19,626 nt of DNA from a virus (Duplodnaviria; Heunggongvirae; Uroviricota; Caudoviricetes). This document shows, one piece after another, positions 492 through 4,891 of the stretch (its first letter is position 1; the number at the start of each line of letters is the position of its first letter). The notes beneath the pieces are model-generated. The model saw only the letters and a list, made by a program, of their open reading frames with translations. It did not search any database and was not told the origin of the DNA. The stretch lies in the IMG/VR virus record IMGVR_UViG_2757320620_000001, positions 95,417-115,042 of that record; one strand, given 5' to 3'. The position numbers and the translations under genes were made by a program.

Positions 492-571
492 CCATGGTCG
501 ACCCATCGCCGGAACCATGGACAGCCTCGGATTGCCACGGCACGCCATGGATCACCGCGGACCAGCCACGG
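492..571. repeat. 10-bp-periodic CCNNGG array
   Basis: CCNNGG starts at 492, 515, 525, 535, 545, 555 and 566 (ggaaccatgg acagcctcgg attgccacgg cacgccatgg atcaccgcgg accagccacgg). Confidence 0.9.
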
Positions 572-681: not shown

Positions 682-838
682 CAGGCGAATCTTGTGACAG
701 GATTGTGTCCGAGGATTACACTCCGGCACGAGAGACGCTCCAGCCCTTGCCAGATGTTTCGCCTACCCGAGACGCTCTATGTTCTGTTCATCGAAAGCGA
801 ACGACTTTCGACAAAACGTCAACAACATGGAGACAGTC

Positions 839-1537
839 ATGACCAAGAAGAACGCGTCCACGAAGACACCGGCCGGCAAGCAGTCCAGCGAACCGCAGGC
901 CTTCATATTCGACGATGCCATGAAGGCGGTGAACGAGGACGACGCCAAGGCGTTTGCGCTGACGATCGCTGCCGCCTTCGACGAGCGGGTGCAGTTCGAG
1001 ATCAGCCGCAAGGCGAACGGCTCGGCCGACATGCCCAAGGTGAAGAAGCTGAACGCCTATCGCAACAAGCTGGCGCTACCCTCGATGGCGCGCGTGCTGA
1101 TGGTGCTGAAGACCACGCCGGCGTTCATCAACGCTCGCCAGGGCAAGGAGGCCGACGGCGATCGCTTCAACATCTACGCCATCGACAAGGTCGTCGACTT
1201 CGTCCGGGCGCTCAGTGGGCACGCCAAGCTGTCGAACGCGCACAACGTGGCGATCGGCAAGTCGATGCTGAACTTCGAGGCGGCCGGCGCGACCTTCACC
1301 GGCGAGATGGCGATGTGCGCAGCCAGCGACAAGATCCGCAGCCAGGATCCAAACGCCAAGCTGCTGCGGCGCCACAACGTCGACAAGGCAACAGCCGGCA
1401 CCCAGGCGTCGTCGACACTGAACGCGATGATGGCGCTCGGTCTGATCGTCAACAAAGGCACCAAGCGGGCAGCCGCTTACGTCTTTGCCGAGACCGAGCA
1501 GGCCGGCGCATTCAAGGAGCTTCTGAAAGTCGTCTGA
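839..1537 (+). CDS. Hypothetical phage protein, 232 aa, possible C-terminal winged helix; paralog of 3779-4345
   Basis: GGAG RBS before the ATG at 839; host-like codon usage; followed by a terminator; colinear similarity to the 3779-4345 product. Confidence 0.85.
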   Translation: MTKKNASTKTPAGKQSSEPQAFIFDDAMKAVNEDDAKAFALTIAAAFDERVQFEISRKANGSADMPKVKKLNAYRNKLALPSMARVLMVLKTTPAFINARQGKEADGDRFNIYAIDKVVDFVRALSGHAKLSNAHNVAIGKSMLNFEAAGATFTGEMAMCAASDKIRSQDPNAKLLRRHNVDKATAGTQASSTLNAMMALGLIVNKGTKRAAAYVFAETEQAGAFKELLKVV

Positions 1538-1569
1538 CCCTCGCCGGGCAGACAACCGACAGAGAGGGG

Positions 1570-1603
1570 AAGGGCGGTGCTCGTGTGGGGTGCCGCCCTT
1601 TCT
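1570..1603 (+). terminator. Rho-independent terminator
   Basis: aagggcggtgc ... gtgccgccctt stem followed by a T-run, just after the 1537 stop. Confidence 0.7.
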
Positions 1604-1861
1604 GTGTGCGTTGGGTCAGCCATGGGGAACCACGGCGCATTTAGGCAAATATTGGGGAACCGGTGGGGTCCAAGGGACCGGCCGATGAGACAGTGCTCAT
1701 CGGCCTTGGGGCACCACGGTCCTTTGACCTCCCCTCGCCTACCCGTCACCATGGCGATCCATGGTCCCTCCTTCCCAATGCGTGCCATCGTTCGCCAGAT
1801 GTAATGCCTTGTTTGGTCGTGCGACTGTCTAATCGTCAACAACGCAACGAGAGACACCCAA

Positions 1862-2167
1862 ATGACCAACAGGCTTATCGACTGCGGCTTCCAAGATCAC
1901 AACAAGTTCGACGTCGGCATCGCCATCGACAAGAGCGAGATCGAGCCCATACGCAAGGAGATCACCACCTGGCGCGACCGCTATGGCAACGACCTCTTCC
2001 ACTCGCAGCCGCGGATCAAGGCCCATCGCGTCGCCTGGGACGTCGTGCTCGAGGGTGTGGTCCAGGAGACGACCGGTATGCCGGCCGCGATCGAGCTTGG
2101 CTCCGTCGAAGAGCTCATGTTCTTCTCCGGGCTCCTCGACAAGATGATGCGCAGCGCCGGCTACTGA
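1862..2167 (+). CDS. Hypothetical protein, 101 aa
   Basis: GAGAG RBS-like sequence, GC3-rich codons, closely followed by the next gene. Confidence 0.8.
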   Translation: MTNRLIDCGFQDHNKFDVGIAIDKSEIEPIRKEITTWRDRYGNDLFHSQPRIKAHRVAWDVVLEGVVQETTGMPAAIELGSVEELMFFSGLLDKMMRSAGY

Positions 2168-2177
2168 GGAGCCCGAC

Positions 2178-2468
2178 ATGGACATTCACTTCAACACCGG
2201 TCGCCTCTACACCAAAGAAGGCCAGGTCATACGCGCCGTCTGGGACAAGGAGAACGAGGTCATCCACTTCGCCGACACCTCGCGTGCCGTCAACGGCTCG
2301 ATCGAGGCGCCGGAGTGGGACATCAGCTTCACCACTCCGGGCGGCCTGGCGCGCTACGTGATGGAGCGCTACGACCGACACGCCTACAAGAGCAGTGCGC
2401 CCTCCTGGGAGCTCCTGATGATCAAGGGCCGCGATCCCGAGGCCCAGGTCCACCAGTTCACCCTCTAA
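2178..2468 (+). CDS. Hypothetical phage protein, 96 aa
   Basis: GAGGAG RBS, typical codon usage, terminator downstream. Confidence 0.85.
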   Translation: MDIHFNTGRLYTKEGQVIRAVWDKENEVIHFADTSRAVNGSIEAPEWDISFTTPGGLARYVMERYDRHAYKSSAPSWELLMIKGRDPEAQVHQFTL

Positions 2469-2474
2469 CAGCCG

Positions 2475-2498
2475 AGGCGCCCAGGTGGCGCCTTTTCT
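2475..2498 (+). terminator. Rho-independent terminator
   Basis: aggcgcc-caggt-ggcgcct followed by tttct. Confidence 0.75.
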
Positions 2499-2613
2499 GT
2501 GGGTGCGGGTTAGCCATGGCGCGGGAGCCGCCCATGGTCCCTCCTCGACCAGGCCATGGCAGGTCCAGGCGTCGCCAGGCCGGTGTGATCCTGCGCTCGC
2601 CAGATAGGACGCC

Positions 2614-2637
2614 TTCGCGAAATCGCTAAATTGCTAT
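2614..2637. promoter_or_regulatory. Tandem 8-mer (WTCGCTAW-type) cluster
   Basis: ttcgcgaa atcgctaa attgctat, upstream of the gene at 2663; one of 11 clusters. Confidence 0.7.
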
Positions 2638-2662
2638 TTATCGAAACAGCGAGAGCACGCAC

Positions 2663-2995
2663 ATGAACATCGCCGACTTCACCGCCAAGATCGTCGCAGT
2701 CGCCACTCAGAGTGACAACCAGGTCACGCCATTCGAAGGTGCTGACTGCTCGCCGCGGATCGAGACGTTTCTCTCGCCGGTCTACATCGGTATCTGGCTG
2801 CACCAGGCAGACACGGTGCAGTATCACCTCGAGATCTCGAACGTGGTTCAGCCTCATGCTTGGCTCGAAGATGGCGTTACGCGCGATGGCGTCGCGTCGA
2901 TCACCGCCTACACGACCTTCGCCGACGTGATGACCGCCTACAACGCCGTGATCACGCATATCGCCTCGAGCGAAGCGAACTTCCACCGCATCTAG
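2663..2995 (+). CDS. Hypothetical protein, 110 aa
   Basis: GAGAG RBS-like sequence; coding-like codon usage. Confidence 0.8.
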   Translation: MNIADFTAKIVAVATQSDNQVTPFEGADCSPRIETFLSPVYIGIWLHQADTVQYHLEISNVVQPHAWLEDGVTRDGVASITAYTTFADVMTAYNAVITHIASSEANFHRI

Positions 2996-3000
2996 CCAGA

Positions 3001-3028
3001 TTGCGCTAAATCGCTAATTCGCTAAACT
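3001..3028 (+). promoter_or_regulatory. Sigma70-like promoter overlapped by three 8-mer repeats
   Basis: TTGCGC-N16-TAAACT; the repeats tgcgctaa atcgctaa ttcgctaa fill the spacer. Confidence 0.55.
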
Positions 3029-3063
3029 GAGAGCGTCAACAACGAAGCGAGCAGGAGCTCAAC

Positions 3064-3237
3064 ATGTCTACCATCATTCCGGCGCCGACCACCGTCTATC
3101 GCATCAAGGAAATGACGCCGACCGAGTCCGCGTTCATGGCCGAGACCGCTGAAGCCTTCAAGACGGTATGCGCCTTCGTCGCCTTCATCATCTTCGTCTG
3201 CTCCGTCATCGCCCTCTGCATCATGATCAAGACCTAA
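3064..3237 (+). CDS. Small membrane protein, 57 aa, single C-terminal TM helix (not in the supplied ORF track)
   Basis: AGGAG RBS; translates as MSTIIPAPTT...VCAFVAFIIFVCSVIALCIMIKT*; terminator downstream. Confidence 0.75.
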   Translation: MSTIIPAPTTVYRIKEMTPTESAFMAETAEAFKTVCAFVAFIIFVCSVIALCIMIKT

Positions 3238-3268
3238 CCGCTTACGAAAGGAGCAACCCTACCAACCA

Positions 3269-3297
3269 GCCGGCGAGCCGCCTACTCGCCGGCATTT
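3269..3297 (+). terminator. Probable terminator
   Basis: gccggcgag-ccgccta-ctcgccggc followed by attt. Confidence 0.55.
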
Positions 3298-3458
3298 CCA
3301 TTTGCAGCTGGCGCCACGGAGAACCACGGTCTAAATTCCCAGGAACCGGCGCACTTGACGCCATGGCTTGCCATCCTCCGGCTGGTCCCTCGCCCCGCCT
3401 ACGTGACGCTCCATCTCCATCGCTCTCGATTGTATCGCACGCGAGCTAATCGCGCATG

Positions 3459-3487
3459 AAAAGAGCGCGCTAGATCTTAGCGCGCTC
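3459..3487 (-). terminator. Rho-independent terminator built without GG/CC
   Basis: gagcgcgcta-gatct-tagcgcgctc (10-bp stem); aaaa at 3459-3462 gives the U-tract on the minus strand. Confidence 0.75.
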
Positions 3488-3506
3488 GCGTTAGTCGCTC
3501 TTGCTG

Positions 3507-3701
3507 CTATTCGCTGTAACGCGTCTCATGACGCATATTCAGCATTTCATATATGTCTGTCTGCTGATAGTCGAACCGACGGTCCAGCAATTCCACACTG
3601 TCAGTCGTCGCGTTGCGCGTCTTGAAGTCGCGTCGCTTCTGTCTGTCTCTCAATTCGCGCTCTGTGAGCGATACGCGCGCGCTGCTATATGATTTGCTCA
3701 T
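3507..3701 (-). CDS. Probable small protein, 64 aa, second gene of the island transcript
   Basis: Lies between the 3779 stop and the 3459-3487 terminator; AAGAG RBS-like sequence; no recognisable family. Confidence 0.5.
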   Translation of the reverse strand: MSKSYSSARVSLTERELRDRQKRRDFKTRNATTDSVELLDRRFDYQQTDIYEMLNMRHETRYSE

Positions 3702-3778
3702 GTCTCTTGTCTCGCTTCTGTGACGCTGCTAGCGCGCTTTATGACGCGCTAGCTAAGTCAAGATTGATTGATCACGCG

Positions 3779-4345
3779 TTACGCTGCAAAGCGCGCTTCG
3801 ATCGCTTGCATAATCGCGTTGTCGTTGACAGTATACTTGTCTTTCGACGCTGCTTTCAGCAAGTTGAGCGCAACAAGAGCGCGCATGTTCATCGAAGCAT
3901 GACGCTTCGCAGAAGAGAATTCATCTTTGCGACGATAGTAAAGCGCGACGCGTTCTTTCGCGACTTTGATATTCTTGTCGAGCGCGATTTCAATGTCGCT
4001 TGCGCTGAACTGCTCACCAGCGCGCTTGAAGTTGACGAGCGTGCGCAGCACTTCTTCAACGTTGCTCTTGAGCTTGTCGACGTTGCGAGCGTTCGCAGCG
4101 AACTCGAGAATATGCGCGCAATTCTCGAGTGCTTTCATGCAGAACGCGCTGTTAGCTTGCACGCTGTCTTGTGCAAAGTCTGTCTTCACTTCGCACGCTT
4201 CGAGCATCTTCGCGACGCTGTCTTGTGTGACGACAAGCGCGCACTTCGATATGAAGTTGAGCGAGTTTGCAGACTTCTTTGCTGCAAGCTCTACGTCGTA
4301 GCGAGCAGACAGAGACAGTGCATATGCGTTAACAACTTTAGTCAT
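3779..4345 (-). CDS. GG/CC-free paralog of 839-1537, 188 aa (1 Gly, 0 Pro, 0 Trp)
   Basis: Start chosen at MTKVV after aaagagagaaacgatc. Aligns to 839-1537, e.g. AYALSLSARYD/AFALTIAAAFD, LVNFKRAGEQFS/MLNFEAAGATFT, ASMNMRALVALNLL/ASSTLNAMMALGLI. Confidence 0.85.
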   Translation of the reverse strand: MTKVVNAYALSLSARYDVELAAKKSANSLNFISKCALVVTQDSVAKMLEACEVKTDFAQDSVQANSAFCMKALENCAHILEFAANARNVDKLKSNVEEVLRTLVNFKRAGEQFSASDIEIALDKNIKVAKERVALYYRRKDEFSSAKRHASMNMRALVALNLLKAASKDKYTVNDNAIMQAIEARFAA

Positions 4346-4425
4346 GATCGTTTCTCTCTTTCGTGTTGACTGTCTAGCAGTCGTTGTTGACATGATCTTT
4401 AGACACTAGTTCGCAGCGTCATGCA

Positions 4426-4449
4426 ATAGCTATTTCGCTAAATCGCGAA
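4426..4449. promoter_or_regulatory. 8-mer cluster at the island promoter
   Basis: atagctat ttcgctaa atcgcgaa, abutting a TTGCAT -35-like box on the minus strand. Confidence 0.6.
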
Positions 4450-4816
4450 TTATTTTTCATAGCATAATTGCTATGTGATGATACGTGCGCATTGACTCAC
4501 AGAGACGCGCTGACACGCATAGACGCGTGAGCAGTGTCACGCGACACAGAAGCGCGTCGATCGATCCCTCGCGCTCGTGTGTGTCGCTGTGAAAGCGCGA
4601 CGTGCGAAGAGAAGCGAAGTCTTAGAGATTTTGCGTGTGGGTCAGCATGATGCCCACTGCTGCCCGGCAAATCCGGTGCTCCGACTACCTATCCCAGTGC
4701 CTTACCGGGACGGACAGCATGCCCTGGGTAGCGATCCGTCAACCAGATCCCCGGCGCCCAGGTTCCCCTGCCCCGCACCCCCGATTCCCGTGCCCAAGCT
4801 ACCCATCCTCTTTTCA

Positions 4817-4836
4817 CTCAATCAATATTGACTGAC
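4817..4836. promoter_or_regulatory. 20-bp palindromic operator (GTMARTMAATATTKAYTKAC), site A
   Basis: ctcaatcaatattgactgac, one mismatch to consensus; upstream of the gene at 4892. Confidence 0.75.
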
Positions 4837-4891
4837 CGTTAGCGCTCGGATAATGTCCTGGCAATTCCAACATGTGAGGATCCAATTTCCC

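What the first reader, a model, noticed from the sequence alone, without database searches (positions are those of the whole stretch)
839..4345. Paralog pair: one normally coded, one recoded to avoid GG/CC even at the protein level
Seen: the 232-aa protein (839-1537, +; 12 Gly, 6 Pro) and the 188-aa island protein (3779-4345, -; 1 Gly, 0 Pro, 0 Trp) align colinearly: AKAFALTIAAAFD/VNAYALSLSARYD, SMARVL/SVAKML, NFEAAGATFT/NFKRAGEQFS, QASSTLNAMMALGLI/HASMNMRALVALNLL. The only GG/CC in the island CDS (4017) encodes the Gly shared by both proteins, while other Gly/Pro positions are substituted. Inference: the phage keeps a modification-proof copy and a modification-sensitive copy of one regulator or effector. 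The pair could act as a switch reading the DNA modification state (incoming virion DNA versus resident plasmid) or as a fail-safe first-expressed gene.
Basis: partly seen in the sequence, partly recalled or inferred. Interest (0 to 1): 0.88.

Follow-up and report, generated by a model that had tools for sequence, protein, structure and literature searches.

The report
Phage regulator paralog rewritten without GG/CC
A Rhizobium phage-plasmid carries two anciently duplicated DNA-binding proteins. One is encoded in a small operon that selection keeps free of every GG and CC, so the protein has no glycine, proline or tryptophan; what reads that dinucleotide is still unknown.

Summary
P0001 (839-1537, +) and P0002 (3779-4345, -) are true but very old paralogs, about 20% identical. 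Evidence: local alignment z = 6.2, hhalign 91% over 172 colinear columns, cross-family HMM hits, and two confident AlphaFold models that hit the same seven AlphaFold DB clusters. Both have an N-terminal helical domain and a C-terminal winged helix.

P0002 lies in the genome's only GG/CC-free stretch (about 3418-4638), which is a complete minus-strand transcription unit. Its CDS has 1 GG/CC, against 59 +/- 6 expected from its own amino acids. At five of seven conserved P0001-family glycine positions the P0002 family has Asn.

The pair and the island recur in Rhizobium, Sinorhizobium, Shinella, Pararhizobium and Methylobacterium elements and in a 46%-GC metagenomic contig. A few lineages have lost the DNA constraint but remain nearly Gly/Pro-free.

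The presumed DNA-reading helices differ between the families, and I found no modification enzyme.

The scan had already noted the GG/CC-free operon on other DNA; the paralog link is the new part. The cause is unknown. My best guess is an expression unit made immune to an agent acting on GG·CC in duplex DNA.

The parts
839..1537 (+). P0001, the normally coded paralog (232 aa). It has a disordered N-terminal 22 aa, a helical domain and a C-terminal winged helix.
   Evidence: Translation. 89 GG/CC observed against 94 +/- 6 expected. AF2 pLDDT 88.4. The family has 301 representative clusters. No Pfam or PHROG match.
3779..4345 (-). P0002, the recoded paralog (188 aa; 1 Gly, 0 Pro, 0 Trp), with the same fold.
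   Evidence: Translation. hhalign 91.4% against the P0001 family. AF2 pLDDT 87.9, pTM 0.86. 1 GG/CC against 58.7 +/- 5.8 expected. dN/dS 0.05-0.15 with 0 GG/CC in orthologs.
3418..4638 (.). GG/CC-depleted island, the only one in the 115-kb genome. It holds 7 GG/CC in 1221 bp, against about 168 at the genome's density.
   Evidence: Odds ratios are CC 0.08 and GG 0.01, against 0.74 and 0.77 genome-wide. No other dinucleotide is avoided.
3507..3701 (-). orf64, the second gene of the island unit (64 aa; no Gly, Pro or Trp). It is conserved in close relatives.
   Evidence: 4 GG/CC against 17.9 +/- 3.4 expected. Annotated as a CDS in relatives.
3463..3487 (-). Terminator-like hairpin built of alternating G/C without GG/CC. 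It closes the island unit.
3756..3769 (.). Copy (2 mismatches) of the genome-wide palindromic operator, between P0002 and orf64.
   Evidence: 6 matches in the window against 0.23 expected.
4383..4391 (-). GTCAACAAC box 38 nt upstream of the P0002 start codon. A GG-less purine-rich ribosome-binding site (GAAAGAGAGA) follows it.
818..826 (+). The same GTCAACAAC box, 12 nt upstream of the P0001 start codon.
   Evidence: 10 copies in the genome against 0.78 expected. Five lie just upstream of start codons in this region.
4017..4018 (-). The only GG/CC inside the P0002 CDS. It is the Gly110 codon, aligned to conserved G150 of the P0001 family.
   Evidence: It is Asn in 14 of 19 family members.
4639..4840 (.). 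GG/CC-rich flank (0.245 per bp against 0.133 background). A similar flank lies at 3201-3417.
   Evidence: The flanks are enriched in 9 of 10 elements on at least one side.

Best explanation
P0001 and P0002 are ancient paralogs of an uncharacterised family of DNA-binding proteins with a helical domain and a winged helix. The family belongs to alphaproteobacterial phage-plasmids related to SSU5.

Shown:
- One copy (P0002) sits in a self-contained two-gene transcription unit from which selection continuously removes every GG·CC step, in promoter, leader, coding and terminator DNA.
- This pushed the protein into a 17-letter amino-acid alphabet. Conserved glycines were mostly replaced by Asn, and prolines by Asp, Glu or Thr.
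- The copies are kept together but have diverged in the presumed DNA-reading helix.

Inferred:
- They are two regulators of one early or immunity circuit with different targets. They share leader boxes, so they are probably switched by the same signal.
- P0002's unit is built so that an agent acting on GG·CC in duplex DNA finds nothing to act on there. That agent could be a modification, a lesion or a cut, made by the phage or by the host.
- P0002 (with orf64) can therefore be expressed when the rest of the genome, including P0001, cannot.
For: Paralogy: sequence; same fold, same AFDB clusters; the P0001 model matches a 188-aa BFVD protein at TM 0.64/0.76.

Winged helix: partial Foldseek hits to ArsR/SmtB and MarR regulators with probability up to 0.99; VIA Z 7.5, rmsd 2.7 over 80 aa.

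Recoding at the codon, codon-junction and amino-acid levels. Gly to Asn at 5 of 7 conserved Gly columns, with N161 invariant opposite G201.

Ongoing selection: dS 0.5-1.2 but 0 GG/CC in orthologous CDSs. The same number of random substitutions would create 48-62 GG/CC.

The whole unit is covered, including the terminator and 90-300 bp upstream of the start.

The depletion is strand-symmetric (GG and CC equally absent), which fits one duplex-DNA feature.

Conservation: 7 annotated phage or plasmid relatives, one metagenome contig and 7 of 10 IMG/VR loci carry the island. One is a 1531-bp zero stretch at 65% GC.

Pair co-occurrence: 9 of 9 IMG/VR loci with enough DNA.

The ancestral state was GG/CC-free. 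Lineages that lost the DNA constraint (M. oryzae plasmid, L061, L065) still have only 3 Gly+Pro.

Shared leader elements.
Against: - No agent was found. No methyltransferase or base-modifying gene is annotated in a close relative, and the literature searches found no description of this phenomenon.
- DNA binding and a regulatory role rest on fold alone. No Pfam, PHROG or PDB sequence family matches.
- Shared leader boxes suggest co-regulation, which sits awkwardly with the idea that the two are expressed under different DNA states.
- Unrelated genes in the same unit are recoded too, so the paralogy may be incidental to the constraint.
- The transcription start is unmapped, so an RNA-level constraint is not excluded.
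Confidence: 0.4

Rival explanations
1. The paralogy is incidental. The GG·CC ban belongs to the locus, for example because it is the first DNA to enter the cell, like the pre-early first-step-transfer region of phage T5. Any gene sitting there is recoded. P0001 and P0002 then have independent jobs and do not form a switch.
For: Unrelated second genes in the unit are also free of GG/CC and of Gly, Pro and Trp: orf64 here and a 126-aa gene in pAMS5a. B1VFA has fixed ends with 3,605-bp direct terminal repeats (PMC12509600). The distance from the large non-coding region upstream of the P0001-type gene to the island's outer edge is of that order.
Against: The position of the termini relative to the island could not be checked. 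The B1VFA record has no repeated ends and starts inside another gene. The pair is kept together in every element examined, and the two genes share leader boxes. That is more than an incidental neighbour would show.
Confidence: 0.35
2. Self-avoidance. One of the two proteins itself reads GG/CC-containing sites, such as the phased CCNNGG array at 492-571. The P0002 unit must lack all such sites to escape its own repression or coating.
For: A helically phased run of six or seven CCNNGG lies about 270-350 bp upstream of P0001. The flanks of the island are GG/CC-enriched in most elements.
Against: A reader of a 2-bp step would be titrated by the 60%-GC host chromosome. Complete removal of isolated GG/CC, not just CCNNGG, is more than operator avoidance needs. 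There are no binding data.
Confidence: 0.1
3. RNA-level constraint. The transcript must lack GG and CC to escape an endoribonuclease or an RNA-binding repressor, as with MazF-resistant ACA-less mRNAs.
For: The depleted zone matches a transcription unit from leader to terminator. Even the ribosome-binding site is GG-less. The element encodes RtcB and an RNA ligase, which are RNA-repair functions.
Against: Two different dinucleotides (GG and CC) would have to be banned independently in one RNA, whereas a single duplex step explains both. In this phage the zone runs 220-295 bp upstream of the start codon, beyond the shared leader box.
Confidence: 0.1
4. Evasion of a CRISPR PAM (type I-F CC, Cas9 NGG) or of a set of restriction sites.
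For: CC/GG is a known PAM (my own knowledge). Motif depletion in phages is documented (PMC4246573, listed but not read).
Against: A 1.2-kb PAM-free patch cannot protect a 115-kb genome with a GG/CC every 7 bp. Many restriction sites contain no GG/CC. The trait spans hosts of several genera.
Confidence: 0.05

Closest known systems
Pre-early (first-step-transfer) region of phage T5 and its lack of EcoRI sites (my own knowledge, not checked here)
   Same: A small block of early-acting genes is kept completely free of a short DNA motif that the rest of the genome carries freely. The block's products are thought to act before the rest of the genome is safe.
   Different: Here the motif is a 2-bp step and not a 6-bp site, so the ban reaches the amino-acid alphabet. 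The location at a physical end is unverified, and the agent and the products' functions are unknown.
Toxin-site-free mRNAs, for example ACA-less messages resistant to MazF (my own knowledge)
   Same: Coding sequence is purged of a short cleavage motif by codon choice so that the gene stays expressible.
   Different: The depletion here is strand-symmetric (GG and CC), includes non-coding flanks, and required amino-acid replacement.
Same-fold regulator pairs of temperate phages, such as lambda CI and Cro (my own knowledge)
   Same: Two related DNA-binding proteins are kept in one control region of a temperate element.
   Different: The genes are convergent and 2.2 kb apart, with several genes between them. 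No shared operator has been shown. There is no sequence relation to CI/Cro, and one member is recoded.
ArsR/SmtB- and MarR-type winged-helix regulators
   Same: The C-terminal roughly 90 residues adopt the helix-turn-helix plus beta-wing fold.
   Different: There is no sequence-family membership. The proteins have an extra N-terminal helical domain, and no metal or ligand sites are evident.

Membership tests
Winged-helix DNA-binding fold (ArsR/SmtB, MarR and relatives) | Three-helix bundle with a recognition helix followed by a beta-hairpin wing | tested here: met
   The AF2 models show H-H-H-E-E at the C-terminus. Foldseek partial hits to CzrA, SqrR, HlyU and APE_0880a reach probability 0.85-0.99, TM by target 0.5-0.63. 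VIA gives Z 7.5, rmsd 2.7 over 80 aa; that Z is middling by the tool's own note.
Winged-helix DNA-binding fold (ArsR/SmtB, MarR and relatives) | Sequence match to a curated HTH family profile | tested here: not met
   No Pfam, PHROG or PDB-profile match at significant E-values for either family. The best is NmtR at E = 0.31.
Winged-helix DNA-binding fold (ArsR/SmtB, MarR and relatives) | Sequence-specific DNA binding | not testable with these tools
   Needs EMSA, DAP-seq or ChIP-seq.
One protein family containing both P0001 and P0002 (paralogy) | Significant profile-profile and cross-family HMM similarity over the full length | tested here: met
   hhalign 91.4%, E = 9e-7, 172 columns. A bridging Methylobacterium protein matches both families at 98% and 83%. 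HMM cross-hits.
One protein family containing both P0001 and P0002 (paralogy) | Same three-dimensional fold and topology | tested here: met
   The order of secondary-structure elements is the same. The same seven AFDB clusters top both searches. Cross-match in BFVD at TM 0.64/0.76.
T5-like first-step-transfer (pre-early) region | Lies in the terminal repeat at the leading end of virion DNA | tested here: inconclusive
   B1VFA has 3,605-bp terminal repeats, but the record's ends are arbitrary and not repeated. No read data were available.
T5-like first-step-transfer (pre-early) region | Local absence of a motif that is present elsewhere in the genome | tested here: met
   It is the only GG/CC-free stretch in 115 kb.
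Toxin-site-free mRNA | Motif avoided on the transcribed (RNA-sense) strand only | tested here: not met
   GG and CC are both near zero on the same strand (odds ratios 0.01 and 0.08).

The most novel reading that the evidence does not exclude
These phage-host systems contain an undescribed factor that reads the bare GG·CC step in DNA: a modification writer, a lesion-forming defence or a nuclease. The phage then keeps a normally coded regulator and a GG·CC-free, 17-amino-acid 'safe-mode' paralog as a two-channel circuit, which reports or survives the state of its own DNA.
Probability: 0.25. Interest if true: 0.9.

Novelty: new variant of a known kind. Interest (0 to 1): 0.78.

Why it matters
- It gives a natural before-and-after pair for one fold. 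One version uses 20 amino acids. The other has been kept for a long evolutionary time without glycine, proline or tryptophan, with Gly replaced by Asn at the conserved turn positions. That is a ready-made test case for how proteins tolerate a reduced alphabet.
- The strictness, the ongoing nature and the wide conservation of the GG·CC ban imply a strong, still unidentified selective agent in phage-plasmid biology. The normally coded paralog and the lineages that have lost the ban supply built-in controls for finding it.
- The pair marks an uncharacterised control region shared by a large group of alphaproteobacterial phage-plasmids. The P0001 family alone has 301 representative clusters.

Tried and rejected
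- Family assignment: Pfam, PHROGs and PDB sequence searches gave no family for either protein. Foldseek against the PDB gave only partial winged-helix hits.
- The conserved GG/CC-rich block next to the island: ARAGORN and Rfam found nothing, and its folding energy is not unusual.
- The search for related loci with a very diverse alignment failed. Narrower alignments gave 10 loci.
- Foreign low-GC DNA is rejected. Only GG/CC is depleted, CG and GC are enriched, and the island is syntenic and conserved in all relatives.
- A tRNA-level explanation (all Gly, Pro and Trp anticodons contain CC or GG) is rejected as sufficient. Codon junctions and non-coding DNA are purged too.
- Gene-content contrast between island-bearing elements (own genome, pAMS5a, pLM21S1, Shinella) and island-less ones (M. 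oryzae plasmid, Klebsiella SSU5-like plasmid) singled out a GHKL-ATPase pair. It looks like rIIA/rIIB. There is no mechanistic link to GG/CC and there are only about two independent contrasts, so I treat it as coincidence.
- P0002 as binder of the genome-wide palindromic operator is unlikely. The operator is reported to be shared with SSU5, but the Klebsiella SSU5-like plasmid has no homolog of either paralog.
- Literature searches found no description of a GG/CC-free phage operon. One search was malformed.


Full report
CONTEXT

The window is the last 19.6 kb of a 115,042-bp contig at 60.3% GC. It is 86-91% identical to Rhizobium phages RHph_Y2_11 and RHph_N1_10, and 80% identical to a Pararhizobium plasmid. 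It is more distantly related to phages B1VFA, V1VFA-S and X66, to pLM21S1 and to SSU5-like Klebsiella plasmids. It is therefore part of a phage-plasmid. The window also carries parA, a helicase, two ParB-like genes, terminase and portal.

THE OBSERVATION

P0001 (839-1537, +) has 232 aa with 12 Gly and 6 Pro. P0002 (3779-4345, -) has 188 aa with 1 Gly and no Pro or Trp.

P0002 lies in the only GG/CC-poor stretch of the genome, window 3418-4638. The gaps between successive GG/CC there are 549, 424 and 159 bp, while the next-longest gap anywhere in the genome is 105 bp. Only GG and CC are affected, with odds ratios of 0.01 and 0.08. CG and GC are enriched, as they must be if 51% GC is kept without GG/CC.

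ARE THE TWO PROTEINS HOMOLOGOUS?

BLASTP alone is marginal (E = 0.001 over 72 aa), but five further lines of evidence agree.
- A local alignment covers nearly the full length of both proteins. It scores 76 against 37 +/- 6 for shuffled sequences (z = 6.2).
- Alignments of 19 homologs of each protein match by hhalign at 91.4% probability, E = 9e-7, over 172 colinear columns.
- A Methylobacterium protein (P0191) bridges the families, matching one at 98% and the other at 83%.
- An HMM of the P0002 family, run over whole plasmid records, finds the P0002-type gene and then the P0001-type gene at E = 5e-9 to 3e-6. The reverse holds in 9 of 10 IMG/VR loci (small search space).
- AlphaFold2 models of both are confident (pLDDT 87.9 and 88.4) and have the same order of helices and strands. 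Both hit the same seven AlphaFold DB clusters over their full length. The P0001 model also matches a 188-aa phage protein in BFVD at TM 0.64/0.76.

The paralogy is real, but the two are only about 20% identical.

FOLD AND FAMILY

Each protein has an N-terminal helical domain and a C-terminal winged helix. The wing region gives partial matches to ArsR/SmtB and MarR regulators and to other winged-helix domains. The whole protein matches no solved structure, and no Pfam, PHROG or PDB sequence family matches. The P0001 family is large, with 301 representative clusters, 153 of them at E <= 1e-30.

The presumed recognition helix is strongly conserved within each family but differs between them: T185, T188, Q189, S191 and S192 are invariant in one, and R148, H149, M152, N153, M154 and R155 in the other. 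I read this as different DNA targets.

RECODING

With its own amino-acid sequence and the genome's codon usage, the P0002 CDS should contain 58.7 +/- 5.8 GG/CC (minimum 40 in 2000 simulations). It has 1. P0001 has 89 against 94 expected. GCC, ACC, TCC, CGG and AGG are never used in P0002, although GCC and ACC are the genome's commonest Ala and Thr codons.

At the protein level, 15 of 19 family members have no Gly, Pro or Trp at all.

In a merged alignment of the two families, the conserved residues of the P0001 family correspond as follows:

| P0001 family | P0002 family |
|---|---|
| G61 | N30 |
| G107 | N65 |
| G127 | N85 |
| G150 | N110 |
| G201 | N161 (invariant) |
| G207 | S167 |
| G187 | K147 |
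| conserved Pro (P81, P94, P171) | Asp, Glu or Thr |

Asn is the classic stand-in for Gly in left-handed turns (my own knowledge). The single Gly in this phage's P0002 (the codon at 4017) sits at the N110 column, so it is a local exception and not a retained essential residue.

THE BAN IS ACTIVE AND OLD

Orthologs differ at many silent sites (dS 0.5-1.2; dN/dS 0.05-0.15), yet their CDSs have 0 GG/CC. The same number of random substitutions would create 48-62.

The island is present at the syntenic place in the following elements:
- Phages Y2_11, N1_10, B1VFA and X66.
- The Pararhizobium plasmid p5.
- pLM21S1, with 1334 bp containing no GG/CC at all.
- A Shinella plasmid.
- Methylobacterium pAMS5a, with 1531 bp containing none at 65% GC.
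- A 46%-GC metagenomic contig, with 903 bp containing none.
- 7 of 10 IMG/VR loci.

It is absent from a Klebsiella SSU5-like plasmid, which also lacks both paralogs.

Three lineages have lost the ban, and one is partly eroded:
- The M. oryzae plasmid's ortholog is 60% identical to that of pAMS5a but has 71 GG/CC against 0. Its second island gene is truncated by an early stop.
- Loci L061 and L065 have 30-32 GG/CC in the CDS.
- L062 is partly eroded, with 10 GG/CC.

The three relaxed proteins still carry only 3 Gly+Pro each, and L062 none. That pattern shows the GG/CC-free state is ancestral and that silent sites relax first.

ANATOMY OF THE UNIT

The unit runs along the minus strand in this order:
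- An upstream zone without GG/CC, 220-295 bp here and about 90-120 bp in most other elements.
- A GTCAACAAC box.
- A GG-less purine-rich ribosome-binding site.
- P0002.
- A copy of the genome-wide palindromic operator.
- orf64.
- A hairpin terminator built of alternating G and C.

Both flanks are GG/CC-enriched in most elements. The second gene differs between lineages (orf64 here, a 126-aa gene in pAMS5a) but is also free of GG/CC and of Gly, Pro and Trp. The ban therefore applies to the unit as a whole.

P0001 and P0002 are convergent and 2.2 kb apart here, and co-directional in the Methylobacterium elements. They occur together in 9 of 9 IMG/VR loci that held enough DNA. Their leaders share lineage-specific elements: GTCAACAAC here, and 14-nt identical strings in B1VFA and in the metagenomic contig.

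WHAT CAUSES THE BAN?

I could not find out. Equal loss of GG and CC on one strand is most simply a single feature of duplex DNA. The need to remove every copy across a whole expression unit points to something where one site is enough to block or destroy expression: a cut, a bulky modification or a lesion.

No methyltransferase or base-modifying enzyme is annotated in a close relative. The ParB/ABC-ATPase module suggested elsewhere as the writer is still present in the island-less M. oryzae element. A gene-content contrast singled out only an rIIA/rIIB-like pair, which I regard as coincidence.

B1VFA has 3.6-kb terminal repeats (PMC12509600), but I could not place them relative to the island. 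A T5-like first-entry explanation therefore stays open.

VERDICT

The two genes are ancient paralogs with probably different targets, not two copies of one regulator, and no modification system has been shown.

The scan had already described the GG/CC-free operon on other DNA (notes e1-5352931 and e1-1684266). New here are the paralog relationship, the Gly-to-Asn replacement pattern, the lineages that have relaxed the ban, and the shared leader elements.

Noticed in passing
window 492-571: Six or seven CCNNGG motifs (CCATGG, CCTCGG, CCACGG, CCGCGG) are spaced about 10 bp apart. They lie in what looks like non-coding DNA upstream of P0001; the 187-aa ORF at 134-697 has an implausible Cys/Arg-rich translation.
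   Followed up: partly
window 818, 1835, 3035, 4383 (-), 7865: A GTCAACAAC box occurs 10 times in the genome against 0.78 expected. Four of the five window copies sit 12-40 nt upstream of start codons, in the gene's orientation, including both paralogs. This suggests a shared leader or promoter element for a small gene set.
   Followed up: partly
window 4640-4760: A GG/CC-rich block of about 120 bp, directly outside the island, is strongly conserved in four relatives. There is no tRNA or Rfam match, and its folding energy is not different from shuffles.
   Followed up: partly
genome outside the window: L052:2291-4690 and L052:4687-6162 (G000 C1 about 65.3-69.2 kb): A GHKL-ATPase protein resembling rIIA sits next to a 491-aa partner. 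The pair is present in the four island-bearing elements compared and absent from the two island-less ones.
   Followed up: partly
L008:10808-11000 (M. oryzae plasmid): The gene downstream of the P0002-type gene keeps the first 10 residues of its pAMS5a counterpart, then diverges and stops after 39 codons. It is a decayed second island gene in a lineage that has lost the GG/CC ban.
   Followed up: partly
window 783-805; L003 upstream of 8626 and of 11453: An inverted repeat, TCGAAAG...CTTTCGA, lies in the leader of P0001. It is also found in the leaders of both paralogs in B1VFA, so it may be a shared regulatory hairpin.
   Followed up: no
Pararhizobium p5 record, L011 and L012: This phage-plasmid group encodes its own sigma factor, a MoxR ATPase, DnaE, RepC, RtcB and an RNA ligase. 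The last two indicate an RNA-repair capacity.
   Followed up: no
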